Made by a program: the position numbers and the translations under genes. Shown one piece after another: positions 4,001 through 15,407 of a DNA stretch of 39,918 bases. Each line of letters begins with the position of its first letter. Position 1 is the first letter of the stretch. The notes beneath the pieces were generated by a model that saw only the letters and a list, made by a program, of their open reading frames with translations, had not been told where the DNA came from and ran no database searches. The DNA comes from an uncultured Saprospiraceae bacterium (GTDB lineage: Bacteria; Bacteroidota; Bacteroidia; Chitinophagales; Saprospiraceae): positions 1-39,918 of the forward strand of contig CALHBQ010000103.1 in assembly GCA_937930815.1 (NCBI GenBank), written 5' to 3'.

Positions 4001-6077
4001 TGATCCACTAGCCCAGATTGATCAAACTGCAACTCAACTTGCTGCTGGCAATTTTGAAGTTACCGTAAATGACAGTAACGGGTGCGAGCAAATCGCCGGA
4101 AACACAATTATTGAACCTGGCGAAATTAATGCAACATTCGATATTGAAGATGTCAAGTGTTTTGGAGACAGCTCTGGTGTCCTCGTTGCAAATATTGATG
4201 GAGGTGTTGGACCTTTTGATATAATGTGGAATGACCCTGACAATCAAACCGGACCGAGAGCCTCTAATCTTAAAGCAGGAACTTATACGATTACCATCAC
4301 GGATCAAAATATGTGTGTTCAAAATGATTTTGCAATTCTGGGTCAACCTGCCACTCCGATAACATCAAGTGTCACTCAAACTGATATAAGTTGCTTTGGA
4401 GCAAATAAAAATGCAGCGGAACTAACTGCCTCAGGTGGTACAGGAACTAATTACATTTATAGCTGGAGTAATGGATTTTCGGGTAGCAATATTTCTAATA
4501 TCATTGCAGGCACTTATTTTACGGAAGTTGAGGATGAAAACGGATGTATTGCAAAAGATACTATTAAAATCGAGGAGCATGAGCCATTAACGACCAACAT
4601 GCTTGTTATTCCTCCAACCTGTAATGATGGAACAGATGGAGGAATGGGCGTTCGCCCAAGAGGTGGCTCAAACGCGCCTGGCACCGTTAAATTCCAATGG
4701 AATACTTCAGATATTACTCCATTAATCGAAAATCTTGCAGGAGGTAGAGATTACTCCGTAACCGTTACAGACGGCGGCGGATGTAAGGGAGATACAACTG
4801 TTTTCTTACCTAATCCTGACCCGTTGGTAGTTTTGGGTACTTCCGAATTGGTAAAATGTTTTGGTGGAAATGATGGCACAGCCACAATCACAGGATTAGA
4901 TGGCGGTGGAATTATCGAAAGTTACAGATGGAGTTCTTCAGCCAATGATCAACAAACTCAAACAGCTACTGGATTAGCTGCTGGTCAATATCAGGTGACT
5001 ATATCTGATGACCAAGGTTGCCCTGGCTATCAAACAGTACTTGTTGATCAGCCCTCTCAAATAAAAATTATTGACGAAGACATCATCGACAATAATTGTT
5101 TTGGGGAAAAAGAAGGTTCGATACAAATTGATGTTAATGGAGGAACACCATTCGATAACCTACCAAGGTACCAAGTCGATTGGTCCAATAATGATTCTGG
5201 AACTACGATTAGAGAATTGGCATCTGGCGATTATAGAGTGACCGTTACGGATCAAAATGGTTGTGAAGAAGAGGATATTATTACTGTCGAACAACCAGAT
5301 CCAATTGATGCTGATTTTAAAGTAACAGATGTCATTTGTGCAGGTGGAAGAAATGGTCAAATTGAAATCGATGCAAGTGGTGGCTCTCCCCCTTATAAAT
5401 ATAGTTACCGAGAAGACTTTTTCACAGGAAGTAGTACACTGATTGGGCTAACTGCCCAAACTTATCAGGTTCTAATTACGGATAGATTTGATTGTAAGTT
5501 CTTTGAAGAAATTGAAGTCAAAGAACCCCTTCCAATCGAAGTCGAAGCAGGCCCTGATTTTGTTGAAATACAACTTGGCGATAGTGTGACCTTAATTGCG
5601 AATGCAACCAATGCAGTTGGAAATGTAGATTTCGAATGGAGTGCCGCCTACGACGGAACCTTAAGTTGTGATTTTTGTAAATACACGAACTCCAGTCCAA
5701 TGTCATCTATTATTTACACTCTCTATGGAGAAGATGAAAATGGCTGTTTTGATAGTGATAAAATTGAAGTACGCGTTCAGAAAGAACGTAAAATATTTGT
5801 CCCAACTGCCTTTACACCAAACCAAGATTTTACAAATGATAAGCTATTGGTTCATGGAAAAGATGGTACTCAAATTAAGTTATACCGAATCTATGACCGC
5901 TGGGGAGAATTGATATTTGAAGCCAAAGATTTCATGATAAATGATCCTAATATTGGATGGGATGGAATGTTCCGTTCCAAACCAGTAAATTCTGGAATCT
6001 ATCAATGGTATCTCGAAGTAGAATTCATTGATGAAGCTACTGATGTTTTCAAAGGTCATACAACTTTGATAAGATAG
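1062..6077 (+). CDS. giant secreted multidomain cell-surface protein with T9SS type B (gliding motility-associated / CHU_C) C-terminal domain
   Basis: 1671-aa ORF starting at ATG. Signal peptide MFIKRTLFVCLMVCTYLSTFCQ. CUB-like N-terminal module (STCEGFFTD...IKLEF...DSLEFYDD...GWNAKISC). PKD-like segment (FTWIFGEG...YNVSLQIKD). Two proprotein-convertase P-domain-like modules (ICVNMEHSWMRDMSITIQCPNGTEVEL; ICFDLETDYAFDIQAILHSPNGKSLVL...GDWILEVSD). Eight SprB-type repeats (C.G..DG......GG..P......W.......L.AG.Y.V.V.D..GC). C-terminal FVPTAFTPNQD..ND...IYDRWGELIF...GWDG..SGIYQWYLEV, characteristic of type B sorting domains. Confidence 0.85.
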   Translation: MFIKRTLFVCLMVCTYLSTFCQTFTMDGSRISTCEGFFTDKGGSNGDYWPNQNLSAVICSDGGSGSHIKLEFAGVYMAPGDSLEFYDDIVPNPNKFLAGQYEFFEGKPFVIQASRANPTGCITVTFKSNGFIQKQGWNAKISCVKSCQLFQAELALSEPSVFPIDTGWIDICPGQTIDFKGKGIYPQSGQFYPQSDATSEFTWIFGEGIVQSGQDVSYTFTEPGGYNVSLQIKDPEGCYNSNYFVQRVRVSPPPTFEIDGNLKREICAKDTLSLSASSDLGFNSDISVALNEGTFETGGVRSDSLALPDGTGVSYSTPIEFSNFAPGQTLQSVDDLESICVNMEHSWMRDMSITIQCPNGTEVELHNHPGNTGGMVFLGEPIDLDILNPRPGVGYDYCWTPDATRDTWINYANTNFTLLGSGTLPAGDYSSYQNLNKLVGCPLNGSWTINVTDWWLQDNGFIFSWSINFAPEVFPDLETFTPGIVSTDWIDNSSFLSENQDSIIAVPKNAGNASYIYEITDEFGCKWDTLINFDILPQTHPDCYSCKDYIEPMRDTMVCEGQAIQLDVTPTQPTSFPVSFESLPNERIGTDNYPPANGFEAIINVNNLNPGSISNPITQIEMICFDLETDYAFDIQAILHSPNGKSLVLTQNNGNTGSYRQTCFTPSANQSITTGAAPFTGDYIPQNGDWTPLTGAQINGDWILEVSDAAGAGEFGVLNSWMISFINEVDFTYTWNNPAVVSCTNCPNPMVTISEPTTLSVETVDNFNCKNTDEVDIDFFTAPSPTVVCASNENGEITIDWTDETGADFYEINIDNQGWVQMSNSEYNFGNYNHGDITDIQIRTHFEGVDCYSIIGAESCQYINCEIETNLTPNNTSCDGSPNGSVILNPENGFGDYSYTIDGRNFQNNNDFENLAADNYTAFVYDELGCGDTVIFEIATPLNFDLNVELVNNVSCFGGNDGRLRAVTTGGTTPFTYLWNDPLAQIDQTATQLAAGNFEVTVNDSNGCEQIAGNTIIEPGEINATFDIEDVKCFGDSSGVLVANIDGGVGPFDIMWNDPDNQTGPRASNLKAGTYTITITDQNMCVQNDFAILGQPATPITSSVTQTDISCFGANKNAAELTASGGTGTNYIYSWSNGFSGSNISNIIAGTYFTEVEDENGCIAKDTIKIEEHEPLTTNMLVIPPTCNDGTDGGMGVRPRGGSNAPGTVKFQWNTSDITPLIENLAGGRDYSVTVTDGGGCKGDTTVFLPNPDPLVVLGTSELVKCFGGNDGTATITGLDGGGIIESYRWSSSANDQQTQTATGLAAGQYQVTISDDQGCPGYQTVLVDQPSQIKIIDEDIIDNNCFGEKEGSIQIDVNGGTPFDNLPRYQVDWSNNDSGTTIRELASGDYRVTVTDQNGCEEEDIITVEQPDPIDADFKVTDVICAGGRNGQIEIDASGGSPPYKYSYREDFFTGSSTLIGLTAQTYQVLITDRFDCKFFEEIEVKEPLPIEVEAGPDFVEIQLGDSVTLIANATNAVGNVDFEWSAAYDGTLSCDFCKYTNSSPMSSIIYTLYGEDENGCFDSDKIEVRVQKERKIFVPTAFTPNQDFTNDKLLVHGKDGTQIKLYRIYDRWGELIFEAKDFMINDPNIGWDGMFRSKPVNSGIYQWYLEVEFIDEATDVFKGHTTLIR

Positions 6078-12078: not shown

Positions 12079-12888
12079 CTACCAAACTTGCCATGGCTTC
12101 CACCTTAGCGGAACCAATTTCCAATGCTGTTTTTCTTTGAAGTCTTTGTTAAAAAAAACGTAGCCGAATTGATAAAGGTCAATTGATTGAGTGACGCGTG
12201 GATCATTTTTGAGTTCCGTCCATGCTTTCGTCATTTCGTCTGACCAATAAATATCATCAAAAACGATAATGGTGTTTTCATTGGACTTTTTCATACAAAG
12301 TTCAAAATAGTCCATCGTCGGCTGATAGCGATGATTGCCATCAATAAAAACCAAATCTAATGATTCGATTTCCTTTAATGCATTTGGTAAAGATTGTCCA
12401 AATTCACCTGTGAACTGCTGAATGTTTTTAGCCTTCGACGTTTGAAAATTATTTTGAGCCACCTTTGCGACATTCGGACACCCCTCTATCGTATAAACTT
12501 TAGAAGCATCATTTGCTTTGGAAAAATAGAGTGTCGAAATTCCTAAGGAAGTGCCTAATTCCAAAATGCTTTTCGGTTGATAAGTCAAAGCAGTTTTGAA
12601 TAGAATTTTGGCGAAATGAACAGCTGTTGCAGAAGTCTTTGCAATTTCACTGATACGCTTTTTCTTTTTGGGCAACACCAAAGAACCTGCTCCGAAATCA
12701 TTGACATCTATCACAGATTTATTTTGCCTTAACTGCTCTCTCAGGGTGACTAAATCGCCGTATGCGTAGAAATTACGCTGGTCTTCCAGTATTTTTCTAC
12801 AAAAATCAAATACGAATGGCGAATGGACACCATGCAGCGTATTTGCAGAGAAATAAAACTTTAGAAATTGGAAAATCCGTTTAATCAA
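12079..12888 (-). CDS. class I SAM-dependent methyltransferase (O-methyltransferase-like)
   Basis: Motif I ILELGTSLGISTLY, then VFIDGNHRYQPT and IVFDDIYWSDEM, typical of the O-methyltransferase family 3-like fold. TTG start; no in-frame ATG, GTG or TTG between it and the upstream stop at 12973-12975. Confidence 0.75.
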   Translation of the reverse strand: MIKRIFQFLKFYFSANTLHGVHSPFVFDFCRKILEDQRNFYAYGDLVTLREQLRQNKSVIDVNDFGAGSLVLPKKKKRISEIAKTSATAVHFAKILFKTALTYQPKSILELGTSLGISTLYFSKANDASKVYTIEGCPNVAKVAQNNFQTSKAKNIQQFTGEFGQSLPNALKEIESLDLVFIDGNHRYQPTMDYFELCMKKSNENTIIVFDDIYWSDEMTKAWTELKNDPRVTQSIDLYQFGYVFFNKDFKEKQHWKLVPLRWKPWQVW

Positions 12889-12933
12889 GGTGGTTGTATG
12901 TTTGATTGAAGTGCAAAGAAAAGAAATGATGGC

Positions 12934-12965
12934 AAAAAAATTCCCGTTTCGAGTGGAAACGGGAA
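12934..12965 (-). terminator. orphan rho-independent terminator reading on the minus strand
   Basis: Perfect 10-bp stem TTCCCGTTTC (12941-12950) / GAAACGGGAA (12956-12965) with a 5-nt loop. The A7 run at 12934-12940 on the plus strand is a U7 tail on the minus strand. No ORF lies upstream of it on the minus strand. It sits 46 nt upstream of the methyltransferase start. Confidence 0.7.
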
Positions 12966-13052
12966 AAGAGAATCAAACATCACGCATTAAATAAGAAGAG
13001 TTAGTCTTTGTTTTTTGTTCAAATTTTTAAAATCAAAAATATTTTTTTTGGC

Positions 13053-13113
13053 TTTTGGAATAAAAAATTTAGGGGGCAGAGCTGGTATCTTTAGGAATTT
13101 GCAGATAAAAAAA
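13053..13113. repeat. intergenic repeat family A, copy 1
   Basis: TTTTGGAATAAAAAATTTA-GGGGGCAGAGCTGGTATCTTTAGGAAT-TTGCAGATAAAAAAA; core at 13072-13098. Confidence 0.85.
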
Positions 13114-13114
13114 G

Positions 13115-13138
13115 TAGTGTTTGTCTTTTGATTTGGAA
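13115..13138. repeat. intergenic repeat family B, copy 1 (TAGTGTTTGTCTTTTGATTTGGAA)
   Basis: 22/24 identical to 13408-13431. Runs into a coreless second copy of TTTGGAATAAAAAATT (13132-13147). A weaker relative, TAGTCTTTGTTTTTTGTTC, is at 13002-13020. Confidence 0.75.
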
Positions 13139-13206
13139 TAAAAAATTGTTCATAATTTTTGTCTCTTATCCTCTAATCATAATCTCATGAAAAAAATTCT
13201 TGCGGC

Positions 13207-13271
13207 TTTGGAATAAATAAAAAATTCAGGGGGCAGAGCTGGTCTCTTTAGGAATTTTGCAGATAAAAAAA
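13207..13271. repeat. intergenic repeat family A, copy 2
   Basis: TTTGGAATAAATAAAAAATTCA-GGGGGCAGAGCTGGTCTCTTTAGGAAT-TTTGCAGATAAAAAAA; core at 13229-13255. GGGAGGA follows at 13274-13280. Confidence 0.85.
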
Positions 13272-13331
13272 TGGGGAGGATTTTTTCTTTCATTTTAAAA
13301 AACAACATTTAAAATTCAAATTTTTTCAATC

Positions 13332-13390
13332 GGTTTAAAAGAAAAAAATTCGGGGAGCAGAGCTGGTATCTTTAGGAATAATGCAGAAAA
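13332..13390. repeat. intergenic repeat family A, copy 3
   Basis: GGTTTAAAAGAAAAAAATTC-GGGGAGCAGAGCTGGTATCTTTAGGAAT-AATGCAGAAAA; core at 13352-13379. GGGAGGA follows at 13398-13404. Confidence 0.85.
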
Positions 13391-13407
13391 TTAAGAAGGG
13401 AGGAATT

Positions 13408-13431
13408 TAGTGTTTGTTTTTTGCTTTGGAA
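13408..13431. repeat. intergenic repeat family B, copy 2 (TAGTGTTTGTTTTTTGCTTTGGAA)
   Basis: 22/24 identical to 13115-13138. Confidence 0.75.
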
Positions 13432-13521
13432 ATTCTTGTGTTTACTGTGTAAGTTTAATCTGTTAATTGTAAGTTTTGGTAAAATGTAAATGTCAAAAAA
13501 TAAAATCAAGCCTTAATAATG

Positions 13522-13560
13522 ATAAAGGAAAAAAACTTGGGGGGAGAGCTGGTATCTTTA
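13522..13560. repeat. intergenic repeat family A, copy 4 (truncated 3' half)
   Basis: ATAAAGGAAAAAAACTT-GGGGGGAGAGCTGGTATCTTTA; core at 13539-13560. Followed by a perfect 8-bp hairpin GTTTCAAA/TTTGAAAC at 13565-13587 instead of the GGAAT..GCAGA tail. Confidence 0.8.
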
Positions 13561-13926
13561 AACGGTTTCAAATGATAAGTTTGAAACACGTTTGTGTTCT
13601 AAAATAAAAGCAAGGGTAAATGTCAAAAGGGAGAATATCTTGGGTGGGATGAGGTAATTTTATTTTTACCCCGATAAGATGTCACAAAGATAAAGCAAAT
13701 GAAGGTTATGATCCAAATCTCAAAATACTCAAAAATCATGATTTTAGCAATTTTCAATCATTTCAACATAAAGCACTGATTACCAGTAACTTACAATAAG
13801 TTATACAATAATCAATCAATGGTTTACCAATTGATTATCAAACAATTACGCAAACCATAAATAGATAAATTAAAAAAAAAACATTTAATCTTTTACCCAT
13901 AATTGATCGAAATTATATTGATAATT

Positions 13927-13939
13927 TTTGTGTCACAAA
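13927..13939. promoter_or_regulatory. palindrome TTTGTG-T-CACAAA (candidate operator)
   Basis: Perfect 6+1+6 inverted repeat 122 nt upstream of pyrC. The 10-mer TGTCACAAAG (13931-13940) also occurs at 13680-13689. Confidence 0.3.
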
Positions 13940-13990
13940 GTTTTTTTATGTTTTTGAGGACTGAAATTTAGCAAAATTTTCAAATAATTT

Positions 13991-14011
13991 TATATTTGTG
14001 ACATCACAAAT
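13991..14011 (+). promoter_or_regulatory. candidate pyrC promoter -7 box TATATTTG overlapping palindrome ATTTGTGA-CA-TCACAAAT
   Basis: 13991-13998 matches the Bacteroidota TAnnTTTG -7 consensus, but I found no clear TTTG -33 partner. 13994-14011 is a perfect 8+2+8 inverted repeat 50 nt upstream of ATG 14061. Confidence 0.35.
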
Positions 14012-14060
14012 AATAATAAATAAAATTAAAATCATTTAATTTAAAGGCATATCATTAAAA

Positions 14061-15407
14061 ATGAGCAATAAAAACGGAATTTTAATCAAAAACGGCCTTT
14101 TAGTAAATAAAGGAAAGAAAACTGTCAAAGACGTCTTAATCAAGAATGGACGCATCGAAAAAATCGATAATGCGATTTCTGCGAAAGGCAATAAAGTAAT
14201 AGACGCAGAAGGATTAATCGTAATGCCTGGAGTCATTGATGACCAAGTTCACTTCAGAGAACCAGGACTTACCCACAAGGCGAATATCTATACAGAGGCA
14301 AAAGCAGCAGTGGCTGGAGGTACAACTTCGTTTATGGAAATGCCAAACACCAAGCCGCCTGCTGTCACTCAAACCAAGTTGGAAGAAAAATATCAAGTTG
14401 GTGCTAAGACCTCTTTGGCCAATTATTCTTTCTTTATGGGAGCTGCCAATGATAATTTGGAGGAGGTTTTAAAAACCGATCCTAAAACTGTCTGCGGTAT
14501 CAAGGCATTTATGGGTTCGAGTACTGGTAATATGTTGGTAGATAACCCAGTGACCTTGGAGAAGCTCTTTTCAGAATGTCCAATGTTGATTGCAACACAT
14601 TGTGAAGATGAAAATACAGTCAGAACGAATTTGGCTTTATTTAAAGAAAAGTACGGCGAATCAATGCCCATCAAATATCATCCTGAAATCAGAAATGTGG
14701 ATGCCTGTTTGATATCAAGCACTCTGGCTACTGATTTGGCGAAAAAACACAATGCCCGTTTGCACATCCTACATATTTCTACAAAAGAAGAATTGAAGTT
14801 ATTTGGAAATAAAATTCCACTTGCTCAAAAAAGAATCACTTCTGAGGTTTGTGTGCATCATTTATATTTTGATGCGACGCATTATGATAAGATGGGTACA
14901 AAAATCAAATGTAACCCTGCCATCAAAGAACCTTCTCATAAAAAGGAATTATTCAAAGCACTTTTAGATGATAGATTGGATATCATCGCAACAGACCATG
15001 CACCTCATACCATTGAGGAAAAAGCAAACAATTATTTCTCCGCTCCATCTGGCCTTCCTTTAGTACAGCACTCCTTAAATGTCATGCTCGACTTTTACCA
15101 TCAAGGAAAAATCAGTTTGGAAAAGATAGTTGAAAAAATGTGCCATGCCCCAGCTATTTGTTTTGAAATAGAAAAACGTGGGTTCTTAGAGGAAGGTTAT
15201 TGGGCAGACATCGTATTACTTGACCCAAACAAAGAATGGACGGTGACCAAAAGAAATGTAAAATACAAATGTGGTTGGTCACCATTGGAAGGCAAACGAT
15301 TCAAAGGAAAAGTGAATACCACCATCGTCTCTGGTCATATTGCTTACCGAAATGGTCGGTTTTATGAAAACAAAACGGGAGAACGTCTGACATTTGATAG
15401 AGACTAA
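14061..15407 (+). CDS. pyrC: dihydroorotase (long, allantoinase-like class)
   Basis: 448 aa. Amidohydrolase ligand set: DDQVHFREPG, IKAFMG (Lys), ATHCED, ILHIST, ATDHAPH. Overall pattern typical of Bacteroidota PyrC. Confidence 0.85.
   Translation: MSNKNGILIKNGLLVNKGKKTVKDVLIKNGRIEKIDNAISAKGNKVIDAEGLIVMPGVIDDQVHFREPGLTHKANIYTEAKAAVAGGTTSFMEMPNTKPPAVTQTKLEEKYQVGAKTSLANYSFFMGAANDNLEEVLKTDPKTVCGIKAFMGSSTGNMLVDNPVTLEKLFSECPMLIATHCEDENTVRTNLALFKEKYGESMPIKYHPEIRNVDACLISSTLATDLAKKHNARLHILHISTKEELKLFGNKIPLAQKRITSEVCVHHLYFDATHYDKMGTKIKCNPAIKEPSHKKELFKALLDDRLDIIATDHAPHTIEEKANNYFSAPSGLPLVQHSLNVMLDFYHQGKISLEKIVEKMCHAPAICFEIEKRGFLEEGYWADIVLLDPNKEWTVTKRNVKYKCGWSPLEGKRFKGKVNTTIVSGHIAYRNGRFYENKTGERLTFDRD

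What the first reader, a model, noticed from the sequence alone, without database searches (positions are those of the whole stretch)
13053..13560. Four same-orientation copies of a conserved motif (core CAGAGCTGGTATCTTTAGGAAT) that is neither coding nor an obvious hairpin
The cores are 13072-13098 GGGGGCAGAGCTGGTATCTTTAGGAAT, 13229-13255 GGGGGCAGAGCTGGTCTCTTTAGGAAT, 13352-13379 GGGGAGCAGAGCTGGTATCTTTAGGAAT and 13539-13560 GGGGGGAGAGCTGGTATCTTTA. Each is preceded by an A-run ending in TT[T/C]. Copies 1-3 are followed by TGCAGA plus an A-run. Copies 2 and 3 also share GGGAGGA downstream (13274-13280, 13398-13404). Core-to-core spacing is irregular: 157, 123 and 187 nt. Copies differ by 1-nt and 4-nt indels (GGGGGC / GGGGAGC / GGGGGGA; AATTTGC / AATTTTGC; GGAATAAAAAATT / GGAATAAATAAAAAATT), so no reading frame is preserved. 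The plus strand is G-rich and C-poor and the minus strand the reverse, so neither strand offers strong intramolecular pairing. That profile fits a sequence-specific protein-binding array (iteron- or centromere-like) or repeated sRNA seed or promoter modules better than a riboswitch-type structured RNA. I cannot match it to any motif I know.
Basis: seen in the sequence. Interest (0 to 1): 0.7.

Follow-up and report, generated by a model that had tools for sequence, protein, structure and literature searches.

The report
Conserved repeat in orphaned gene leader
The four repeats are real and conserved, but they belong to the untranslated leader of a surface-protein gene on the opposite strand. 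This genome has lost that gene, so the repeats are an uncharacterised, clade-restricted regulatory element rather than an iteron or centromere array.

Summary
Four same-strand copies of AGAGCTGGT[A/C]TCTTTA sit at the stated coordinates, and 0 of 100 shuffles reached four matches. No Rfam family matches, and the core has no structure on either strand.

The element occurs only in one clade of uncultured Saprospiraceae (Bacteroidota), and only in the gap between a methyltransferase gene and pyrC. Copy number there is 1-6. Two blocks (39/39 and 36/36 nt) are identical in a relative whose dihydroorotase is 88% identical, inside DNA that otherwise does not align.

A minus-strand sigma-A-type promoter (TTTG-N21-TATCTTTG, 13717-13685) is conserved in all nine genomes. 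In three relatives it points through the repeats into a 310-330-aa PMP-like gene. That ORF is absent here. Promoter, leader, 3'UTR and terminator (12965-12941) remain, and a 157-nt duplication added a copy.

Best reading (confidence about 0.4): an unstructured C-rich, U-tailed RNA module, 5'-UAAAGAUACCAGCUCUGCCCCC...U6-10, that binds a trans-acting factor.

Iteron, centromere, sigma-A and sigma-54 promoter, dispersed-repeat (MITE) and oriC readings fail their tests. A codon-like substitution pattern (GGRAGIF) is suggestive but not significant. The biochemical function is unknown.

The parts
13063..13101 (-). Copy 1 (class A): A-run, TTTA, GGGGGCAGAGCTGGTATCTTTAGGAATTTG. Read as minus-strand RNA it is CAAAUUCCUAAAGAUACCAGCUCUGCCCCCUAAAUUUUU.
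   Evidence: The block is 39/39 nt identical to L002 5390-5428, in a genome whose dihydroorotase is 88% identical and whose flanks do not align. It is unstructured.
13220..13257 (-). Copy 2 (class A), with an A-to-C change in the core. It is the second unit of the 157-nt tandem duplication.
   Evidence: It is 94.7% identical to L002 5390-5427.
13343..13379 (-). Copy 3 (class B, GGGGAGC variant).
   Evidence: Orthologous copies are at L001 5276-5312 and L019 ~185-213; L055 ~139-167 carries the same GGGGAGC variant.
13525..13560 (-). Copy 4 (class C): AAGGAAAAAAACTTGGGGGGAGAGCTGGTATCTTTA. This is the copy present in all nine genomes. It lies 117-129 nt downstream of the inferred minus-strand start site.
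   Evidence: It is 36/36 nt identical to L002 5467-5502. Mean column conservation is 0.89 in the core against 0.53 in the rest of the leader.
13565..13587 (-). Hairpin next to copy 4 (GUUUCAAA-CUUAUCA-UUUGAAAC). On the minus-strand RNA it lies just 5' of the core.
   Evidence: -9.0 kcal/mol, z = -4.5. A hairpin sits 2-7 nt from the class C core in all nine genomes, with different stem sequences in different lineages. A.C mismatches on the plus strand are G.U pairs on the minus strand in L001, L055 and L002.
13685..13717 (-). Inferred sigma-A-type promoter of the minus-strand unit: -33 TTTG, 21-nt spacer, -7 box TATCTTTG. The start site is inferred near 13680.
   Evidence: An exact TAT[CA]TTTG box, with TTG or TTTG 20-21 nt upstream, is on the minus strand in all nine genomes, while the spacer sequence varies. 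The -7 box position of -12 to -5 is taken from PMC9723704.
13651..13672 (-). Hairpin at the 5' end of the inferred transcript (GGGGUAA...UUACCUC). Conserved C-rich islands follow it (CAUCCCACCC, UUCUCCC, UUUACCCUUGC; 13600-13650).
   Evidence: -7.6 kcal/mol, z = -2.1. Among five genomes the stem varies as AU/GU, GU/GC and AU/UA.
13059..13270 (.). About 1.3 units of a 157-nt tandem duplication. Each unit holds a class A copy, a TAGTGTTTGT block and a piece homologous to the 3'UTR of the lost gene.
   Evidence: W 13059-13270 aligns to L001 4832-5044 at 92.6%. L001 has period 158, 3.4 copies, 95% matches.
13146..13215 (-). Segment that resembles the 3'UTR just past the stop codon of the PMP-like gene in L002 (4271-4345). 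It marks where the ORF was lost.
   Evidence: BLASTN supports only W 13146-13161 = L002 4271-4286 at 100%. The rest of the correspondence is my reading of the sequences. tblastn of the PMP-like proteins against the gap finds nothing.
12931..12965 (-). Intrinsic terminator of the minus-strand unit: 10-bp stem, then U7.
   Evidence: -14.4 kcal/mol, z = -5.1. W 12933-13023 aligns to L002 4163-4249, downstream of the PMP-like gene there.

Best explanation
The repeat is a conserved cis element of a minus-strand transcription unit.

**Ancestral unit (kept in L002, L003 and L054).**
- A Bacteroidota sigma-A promoter (-33 TTTG, -7 TATCTTTG).
- A 240-420-nt, C-rich, G-poor 5' leader carrying 1-3 copies of the element.
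- A 310-330-aa PMP-like (beta-helix type) protein gene.
- A 3'UTR of about 150 nt and an intrinsic terminator.

**In this genome, and in L001 and L055.** The ORF is gone. Promoter, leader, 3'UTR remnant and terminator are kept. That predicts an orphan non-coding RNA of about 750 nt (13680 to 12931). A 157-nt tandem duplication raised the copy number to four.

**Proposed action.** Each copy is an unstructured RNA module, 5'-UAAAGAUACCAGCUCUGCCCCC, then 3-4 nt, then U6-10. The promoter-proximal copy always follows a hairpin. I propose the module is a binding or loading site for a trans-acting factor on the nascent leader. Candidates are Rho (a rut-like C-rich site), a specialised NusG-type elongation factor, or an RNA-binding protein. 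The factor would set how much transcription or translation reaches the downstream gene.

**Shown:** reality of the repeat, its conservation, its restriction to this locus and clade, orientation, lack of structure, consensus matches for promoter and terminator, the adjacent hairpins, and loss of the ORF.

**Inferred:** that the minus strand is transcribed, that the element acts as RNA, and the identity of the factor.
For: 1. **Real and selected.** 0 of 100 shuffles give 4 matches. The 39/39- and 36/36-nt blocks are identical to L002 inside DNA that otherwise does not align. Core columns score 0.89 against 0.53 for the rest of the leader across eight genomes.
2. **Locus- and clade-restricted.** Scans of 596 Gb of species-representative genomes, of JGI metagenomes and of IMG/VR found the motif with its A-run context only on Saprospiraceae contigs of this same locus. 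It is absent where synteny differs.
3. **Minus-strand unit.** The TAT[CA]TTTG box with TTG or TTTG 20-21 nt upstream is the only exact -7 box present in this gap in every one of the nine genomes. A minus-strand terminator follows. The PMP-like gene lies downstream on the minus strand in L002, L003 and L054.
4. **RNA level and strand.** Every class C copy has a hairpin 2-7 nt away. The stem sequence differs between lineages, and its wobble pairs work only on the minus strand. All copies in all genomes have one orientation.
5. **Accessibility.** The predicted transcript is 20% C and 9.7% G. The cores are unstructured. None of the 4 G's in the 15-nt test core AGAGCTGGTATCTTT varies; these are C's in the RNA.
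Against: - There are no expression data. Promoter, start site and terminator are consensus matches only.
- Blocks of 36-39 nt with exact identity are long for a protein-binding RNA site, and rut sites are not normally conserved in sequence.
- No candidate factor gene is linked to the locus.
- The element stayed unchanged in this genome after the ORF was lost. My rough estimate is P about 0.02 for zero changes if it were neutral. That points to a role not tied to that ORF, or to a very recent loss.
- Substitutions in the core follow a period of 3 that fits a plus-strand frame. The RNA-site model explains this only through 'the C's are conserved'.
- A double-stranded DNA site cannot be excluded by sequence alone.
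Confidence: 0.4

Rival explanations
1. Double-stranded DNA operator array. A sequence-specific DNA-binding protein binds each 22-nt core, helped by bending at the adjacent A-tract. It regulates the divergent PMP-like and pyrC promoters, for example as a roadblock or by looping.
For: - The motif is linear, non-palindromic and unstructured.
- An A-tract flanks every copy.
- Identity at the nucleotide level is higher than coding DNA would keep.
- It lies in a divergent regulatory region.
Against: - The sites lie 117 nt or more downstream of the minus-strand start site and at least 430 nt upstream of the pyrC promoter, at irregular 47-190-nt spacing.
- Orientation is uniform in about 25 copies.
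- The element is tied to a hairpin conserved in structure but not sequence, with strand-specific G.U pairs. That is an RNA signature.
- No regulator gene is linked to the locus.
Confidence: 0.2
2. Since the ORF was lost, the ~750-nt C-rich RNA acts in trans. Its 4-6 repeated modules would titrate a protein or a G-rich RNA, as a sponge or riboregulator.
For: - Promoter, repeats and terminator are kept without any ORF in W, L001 and L055.
- Copy number rose to 4-6 in exactly these genomes, against 1-3 in L002, L003 and L054 (complete leaders) and at least 3 in L056, whose contig is cut.
- W keeps the ancestral cores unchanged.
- No minus-strand ORF is conserved between W and L001.
Against: - The ORF loss may simply be recent. 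L001 cores diverge at about 3-6% against about 10% background, which is close to neutral.
- No partner is known.
- The motif has no second genomic site that could encode a complementary RNA.
Confidence: 0.15
3. Plus-strand promoter modules. The A-tract would act as an UP element, TTG as a -33 element and TATCTTTA as a -7 box. The class C copy would fire an antisense RNA convergent with the minus-strand promoter, or a distal pyrC transcript.
For: - The conserved block ends exactly at TATCTTTA, one base off the locus's own -7 box TATCTTTG.
- The lineage-specific hairpin would sit at the 5' end of such an RNA.
- In L054 a 2-nt insertion separates GAGCTGG from TATCTTTA, which suggests separable modules.
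Against: - The spacer is 13-15 nt where 19-21 is needed, and it is itself the most conserved part.
- The -7 G is replaced by A in every copy.
- The TA is lost in W2, L001a-d and L055a.
- No plus-strand terminator was found.
- Hairpin wobble pairs favour the minus strand.
- Sigma-54 spacing is off by 5 nt, and no ECF-type AAC or CGT boxes are conserved.
Confidence: 0.1
4. Plus-strand micro-ORFs or silent coding cassettes. The core would encode the peptide motif G-[GS]-R-A-G-[ILF]-F.
For: - In the frame AGA GCT GGT ATC TTT, 5 of 8 distinct variants are synonymous (CGA, GCC, GGA, ATT, ATA). The rest are I to L, I to F and F to L.
- No second-codon-position change occurs.
- This is the best of the six frames.
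Against: - P = 0.025 uncorrected, about 0.15 after correcting for six frames.
- About half the copies have no in-frame start codon, and both flanks shift frame between orthologues.
- The 75/75-nt identity to L002 is higher than coding sequence would keep.
- There are no Pfam or NCBIfam hits.
- A profile search of 5.8 billion proteins gave nothing at E up to 10.
- The pattern is equally explained by invariant G's.
Confidence: 0.06
5. A relic with no function. The copies would be leftovers of local duplication that drift neutrally.
For: Copies 1 and 2 here, and four copies in L001, are recent tandem duplicates.
Against: Classes A and C are each kept across genomes whose neighbouring intergenic DNA no longer aligns.
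Confidence: 0.04

Closest known systems
Rho-utilisation (rut) regions in long 5' leaders, e.g. lambda tR1 rutA-boxB-rutB and the mgtA and corA leaders (from general knowledge, not tested here)
   Same: - A C-rich, G-poor, unstructured stretch of a long leader.
- It sits next to a hairpin and is followed by a U-rich stretch.
- It depends on orientation.
   Different: - rut sites are defined by composition, not by a 22-39-nt conserved sequence.
- Rho dependence is untested here.
ops / JUMPStart and nut (boxA-boxB) recruitment sites for elongation factors (RfaH, NusG paralogues such as Bacteroides UpxY, NusB/E)
   Same: - A short linear element in the leader of a surface-structure gene.
- Fixed orientation and a roughly fixed distance from the start site (117-129 nt).
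- It is paired with a hairpin, and the conserved block is about 39 nt, like JUMPStart.
   Different: - The sequence matches neither ops (GGCGGTAGnnTG) nor boxA (GCUCUUUAACAA); only GCUCU is shared.
- It occurs in multiple copies.
- No NusG paralogue is linked.
Sponge or multi-seed RNAs: CsrB/RsmZ, CrcZ, and the tandem LhrC1-4 and RsaE/RoxS C-rich-motif sRNAs
   Same: - Repeated single-stranded motifs at irregular spacing in one RNA.
- Copy number varies between strains.
- The motifs are C-rich.
   Different: - Those motifs are 3-8 nt and have known partners (CsrA, Hfq/Crc, Shine-Dalgarno sequences).
- Here the module is 22 nt or more.
- There is no promoter and terminator per unit.
- Bacteroidota mostly lack CsrA, Hfq and Shine-Dalgarno use (PMC6847099 abstract).
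Iterons and plasmid centromere repeats
   Same: Direct repeats of about 22 bp, all in one orientation, in AT-rich non-coding DNA.
   Different: - Spacing is irregular and long.
- The context is chromosomal housekeeping and T9SS genes, with no rep or par genes.
- The array lies inside a transcription unit.
Bacteroidota sigma-A promoter (-33 TTTG / -7 TAnnTTTG)
   Same: The core contains TTG ... TATCTTTA.
   Different: - The spacer is 13-15 nt, not 19-21.
- The terminal G is missing.
- The spacer is more conserved than the 'boxes'.

Membership tests
Iteron array / replication origin | Regularly (helically) phased direct repeats of 17-22 bp | tested here: not met
   Core-to-core spacing is 157, 123 and 187 nt here. 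In relatives it is 47-190 nt.
Iteron array / replication origin | Linked initiator gene, DnaA-box cluster and a GC-skew switch | tested here: not met
   No rep or dnaA gene among 25 annotated ORFs. DnaA boxes number 14 against 12.7 expected, with none in the gap. GC skew follows gene orientation.
Partition centromere (parS / parC / sopC) | Adjacent parA/parB-type genes; a palindromic or tightly tandem repeat | tested here: not met
   No ParA or ParB domains in the window. The core is not palindromic.
Dispersed repeat (MITE, REP, IS end) | Many copies at unrelated loci; terminal inverted repeats; a transposase somewhere | tested here: not met
   Genome, metagenome and viral scans return only this locus in Saprospiraceae MAGs. 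There are no inverted copies. MAG incompleteness limits this test.
Bacteroidota sigma-A promoter | -33 TTTG, 19-21-nt spacer, -7 TAnnTTTG | tested here: not met
   The spacer is 13-15 nt and the box ends in A. The true consensus is met instead by the minus-strand site at 13717-13685.
Sigma-54 promoter | GG and GC elements with 10 nt between them (TGGCAC-N5-TTGC) | tested here: not met
   In class A, 15 nt lie between GG (13084-85) and GC (13101-02). Class C has no TTGC.
Any described RNA family (Rfam 15) | Score at or above the family's gathering threshold | tested here: not met
   0 hits at gathering scores in the whole window. Only chance-level hits at E up to 10 in 12850-14100. No tRNA or tmRNA.
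Structured cis-regulatory RNA (riboswitch type) | Conserved secondary structure with covariation within the repeat | tested here: not met
   RNAalifold gives 0 pairs (minus strand) and 7 invariant pairs at -1.24 kcal/mol (plus strand). Single-sequence z-scores are near 0. Only the hairpin beside class C is structurally conserved.
Protein-coding micro-ORF | Conserved start and stop, preserved frame, excess of synonymous change | tested here: inconclusive
   There is a synonymous excess in one plus-strand frame (5 of 8; P = 0.025 uncorrected). But there is no conserved start, the flanks shift frame, and no homologues were found.
Intrinsic terminator | GC-rich hairpin immediately followed by a U-tract | tested here: not met
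   The U-tract follows an unstructured C-rich core. The nearest hairpin is 25-30 nt upstream. A true terminator is at 12965-12941.
Rho-dependent attenuator (rut) | C more frequent than G over about 80 nt, unstructured, with Rho-dependent termination downstream | tested here: inconclusive
   Composition fits (C 20%, G 9.7%) and the region is unstructured. Rho dependence cannot be tested with these tools.
CRISPR array | Identical repeats with regular spacers of similar length | tested here: not met
   Spacing is irregular, and the 'spacers' are themselves conserved or duplicated.

The most novel reading that the evidence does not exclude
After the PMP-like ORF was lost, the promoter-leader-terminator remnant was kept and its 22-nt C-rich, U-tailed module amplified to 4-6 copies. 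On this reading the ~750-nt RNA now works in trans as a sponge or riboregulator for an unknown protein or G-rich RNA. That would be a previously undescribed riboregulator type in Bacteroidota, a phylum that largely lacks CsrA and Hfq.
Probability: 0.12. Interest if true: 0.65.

Novelty: new member of a known kind. Interest (0 to 1): 0.35.

Why it matters
Long 5' leaders are unusual in Bacteroidota: the median 5'UTR in Flavobacterium psychrophilum is 24 nt (PMC9723704). Post-transcriptional control in this phylum is poorly understood.

This is a sequence-conserved, hairpin-associated leader module in front of a surface-protein gene. It survives, and is amplified, after the gene is lost. That makes it a small but concrete handle on leader-based regulation, and on how an ncRNA might arise from an orphaned UTR.

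Its reach is limited. It is seen only in one narrow clade of uncultured Saprospiraceae, at a single locus. No mechanism is demonstrated.

Tried and rejected
- **Known RNA families.** Rfam at gathering scores and at E up to 10 gave nothing relevant, and ARAGORN found no tRNA or tmRNA.
- **oriC or iterons.** DnaA boxes are at chance and GC skew follows gene orientation.
- **Decayed pseudogene of the PMP-like gene.** tblastn of the L002 and L003 proteins against the gap gave only E > 0.3.
- **Coding.**
  - Plus-strand frame (GGRAGIF): no Pfam or NCBIfam hit, a profile search of 5.8 billion proteins was empty, start codons are not conserved, and the codon test is not significant after correction.
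  - Minus-strand frames (KIPALPP, IPKDTSSAP): radical replacements and inconsistent frames.
- **Promoters in the core.** Sigma-A, sigma-54 and ECF readings fail on spacing or boxes.
- **Structure.** No hairpin in the core, and the predicted long-range pairing has no covariation.
- **Dispersed element, phage origin, or similarity to conserved E. coli RNA genes.** Nothing was found.
- **Resemblances considered from memory and dropped.** tRNA 5' half, PyrR site, T-box, boxA, ops and Chi. Only 5-7 nt are shared in each case, and Rfam gives no support where a model exists.
- **More distant relatives.** At 71-73% dihydroorotase identity the synteny differs and there is no element.
Full report
**1.

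- AGAGCTGGTATCTTTA with up to 3 mismatches occurs four times in the 39.9-kb window. All four are on the + strand and all lie in the 1172-nt gap between a SAM-methyltransferase gene (12079-12888, -) and a dihydroorotase gene (14061-15407, +). The shuffle mean is 0.36, and 0 of 100 shuffles reach four.
- The + strand is G-rich and C-poor.
- Two details need correcting.
  - The 'GGGGGC / GGGGAGC indel' is two substitutions.
  - One frame is kept across the core itself.
- Copies 1 and 2 are not independent. They are about 1.3 units of a 157-nt tandem duplication. The close relative L001 carries 3.4 units of 158 nt at 95% match.

**2. Organism and distribution.**

- The genes in the window are chromosomal housekeeping genes plus many type IX secretion cargo genes.
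- The nearest public contigs are labelled uncultured Saprospiraceae (taxonomy).
- I used dihydroorotase homologues to fetch syntenic loci. The element is present wherever the methyltransferase-(PMP-like gene)-pyrC arrangement is present, down to 74% dihydroorotase identity.

| Genome | Copies |
|---|---|
| Window (W) | 4 |
| L001 | 6 |
| L055 | at least 3 |
| L002 | 2 |
| L057 | at least 1 |
| L003 | 3 |
| L056 | at least 3 |
| L053 | at least 1 |
| L054 | 1 |

- It is absent at 71-73% identity, where synteny differs.
- I scanned 596 Gb of species-representative genomes, the JGI metagenome set and IMG/VR with GGGGN{2,4}GAGCTGGTNTCTTTA. Only this locus came back with the A-run context. Every other hit is a single match inside unrelated, mostly GC-richer DNA.
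- So this is not a dispersed mobile repeat. It is specific to this locus and this clade.

**3. It is under selection.**

- Between the window and L002 (88% dihydroorotase identity) the gap aligns only in islands:
  - the terminator and 3'UTR;
  - a 39/39-nt block around copy 1;
  - a 36/36-nt block around copy 4;
  - an 18-nt island at the promoter's -7 box and start region;
  - two short matches to the TTGTTCATAATTTTTG block;
  - a 19-nt stretch just upstream of the pyrC start codon.
- In an eight-genome alignment of the promoter-proximal ('class C') copy, core columns score 0.89 against 0.53 for the rest.

**4. Which strand matters.**

- The conserved box GATGTCACAAAGATA, about 125 nt to the right of copy 4, is the reverse complement of a Bacteroidota -7 box.
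- On the minus strand it reads TTTG-N21-TATCTTTG (13717-13685).
- An exact TAT[CA]TTTG with TTG or TTTG 20-21 nt upstream is on the minus strand in all nine genomes, while the spacer sequence varies. It is the only exact -7 box present in this gap in every genome. The -7 box position of -12 to -5 is from PMC9723704.
- At the other end of the array there is a strong minus-strand intrinsic terminator (12965-12941; -14.4 kcal/mol, z = -5.1).
- In L002, L003 and L054 the promoter points through the repeats into a 310-330-aa gene with faint PMP/POMP-repeat hits. The leaders are about 338, 418 and 239 nt long.
- The same terminator follows that gene in L002.
- Here, and in L001 and L055, the ORF is missing.
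- W 13146-13161 matches the L002 3'UTR next to the stop codon exactly. Read by eye, the resemblance continues to 13215.
- The window is therefore predicted to make an orphan minus-strand RNA of about 750 nt (13680 to 12931), with C 20% and G 9.7%.
- No ORF on that strand is conserved between the window and L001.

**5. Evidence for action at the RNA level.**

- The core is unstructured on both strands.
- Every class C copy has a hairpin 2-7 nt away, with lineage-specific stems: GUUUCAAA, ACCGU, ACCGC, AAGGUUU, GUGUC-CAAAU, UGUUCAAA and UACCU.
- In L001, L055 and L002, an A.C mismatch on the plus strand is a G.U pair on the minus strand.
- A second hairpin near the start site shows AU/GU, GU/GC and AU/UA variation that likewise works only on the minus strand.
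- All copies in all genomes share one orientation.
- Read on the minus strand, the module is 5'-UAAAGAUACCAGCUCUGCCCCC, then 3-4 nt, then U6-10.
- The 4 G's of the 15-nt test core (C's in the RNA) do not vary in any copy.
- Other conserved C-rich islands lie between the start site and copy 4.

**6. Best explanation.**

- The repeat is an unstructured, C-rich, U-tailed cis module of a long 5' leader. It most likely serves as a binding or loading site for a trans-acting factor on the nascent RNA.
- Candidate factors are Rho (rut-like), a specialised NusG-type factor, or an RNA-binding protein.
- The gene it served has been lost here, and tandem duplication has multiplied the module.
- My confidence in the whole chain is about 0.4. 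I put 'real, selected, locus-specific' at 0.9 or more and 'part of a minus-strand transcript' at about 0.7.
- The identity of the factor is pure inference.

**7. Rivals.**

- **Double-stranded DNA operator array (0.2).** It fits the linear motif and the A-tracts. It does not fit the position inside the transcribed region, the uniform orientation or the RNA-type hairpin.
- **Trans-acting sponge or riboregulator after ORF loss (0.15).** It fits the retention and amplification in ORF-less genomes. No partner is known, and the L001 cores drift at nearly the neutral rate.
- **Plus-strand promoter modules (0.1).** TATCTTTA is one base off the local -7 box. But the spacer is 13-15 nt, the G is missing and the TA is not kept. 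Sigma-54 spacing is off by 5 nt.
- **Plus-strand micro-ORFs encoding G-[GS]-R-A-G-[ILF]-F (0.06).** Five of 8 distinct variants are synonymous and none hits a second codon position. However:
  - P is 0.025 before and about 0.15 after correction for six frames;
  - start codons and flanking frames are not conserved;
  - no protein relatives exist;
  - the 75/75-nt identity to L002 is more than coding DNA would keep.
- **Neutral relic (0.04).** The conservation data contradict this.

**8. Comparison with known systems.**

- There is no Rfam family and no tRNA or tmRNA.
- Iteron, centromere, oriC, MITE, CRISPR, sigma-A promoter, sigma-54 promoter and intrinsic terminator each fail at least one defining feature that I tested.
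- By function, the closest analogues are rut regions and ops/JUMPStart/nut-type leader sites. For the orphan RNA, the closest are sponge or multi-seed RNAs (CsrB, CrcZ, LhrC).
- The sequence matches none of these. I claim resemblance in how it may work, not membership.

**9. Verdict.**

This is a real, conserved element that appears undescribed, on the basis of the Rfam and sequence-collection searches. It is narrowly distributed, seen at one locus in one uncultured clade, and its mechanism is inferred only. Its favoured interpretation (a DNA iteron or centromere array) is not supported. Its 'not a structured RNA' call is right. Interest is moderate to low (0.35).

Noticed in passing
window 13678-13694 and 13989-14005: The two divergent promoters are near-identical inverted 17-mers (94% complementary): TTTATCTTTGTGACATC on the minus strand and TTTATATTTGTGACATC on the plus strand (the pyrC side, with -7 box TATATTTG at 13991). 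They share the -7 box and the first transcribed bases TGTGACATC. That suggests co-regulation, or a common factor binding at the start site.
   Followed up: partly
window 13916-13941; also L001 ~5868-5882, L002 ~5868-5880: A third TTTTGTGTCACAAAG element (palindromic around TGTGTCACA) lies between the two promoters and is conserved in relatives. It looks like a CRP/FNR-type half-site pair or another promoter.
   Followed up: no
L002 4342-5280, L003 3584-4516, L054 1020-2009 (all minus strand): A 310-330-aa gene with faint PMP/POMP-repeat hits lies between the methyltransferase gene and the repeats in three relatives. It is missing from the window, L001 and L055. This is a clean lineage-specific ORF loss that left the gene's regulatory DNA behind.
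   Followed up: yes
L001 4660-5203: A 158-nt minisatellite (3.4 copies, 95% match) carries one core per unit. Unit lengths of 157 and 159 nt differ by A-run length. Copy number differs between close relatives, so it behaves like a VNTR.
   Followed up: partly
window 13001-13017, 13114-13138, 13407-13431: A second repeated block, (A)nTAGTGTTTGTYTTTTG, follows class A and class B cores. It is conserved in L003, L053, L055 and L056. It is read in different frames in different copies, so it too is a nucleic-acid-level element.
   Followed up: no
window 13600-13650 (minus strand): Conserved C-rich islands (CAUCCCACCC, UUCUCCC, UUUACCCUUGC) lie between the inferred start site and copy 4. In L003, L053 and L056 an AUUUCGA/UCGAAAU stem encloses a C-rich loop at the same place.
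   Followed up: partly
window 13072-13092 and all orthologous cores: Unexplained: substitutions in the core avoid every second position of the frame GGG GGC AGA GCT GGT ATC TTT. They include AGA/CGA, GCT/GCC, GGT/GGA and ATC/ATT/ATA. The pattern is codon-like, yet nothing else looks translatable.
   Followed up: yes
window 13826-13840; L002 ~5770-5783; L003 ~5016-5029: A conserved near-palindrome, CAATTGATTATCAA, lies in the very AT-rich stretch (about 20% GC) upstream of pyrC. It may be a regulator site.
   Followed up: no
L001 3692-4588: The public gene call for the methyltransferase (298 aa) runs across the minus-strand terminator. The start is probably mis-called; the orthologues are 269 aa.
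   Followed up: no
L003 52-1128: An ISL3-family transposase gene lies about 1.4 kb beyond the methyltransferase gene in L003. It is unrelated to the repeats, which lack inverted ends and are not dispersed.
   Followed up: no
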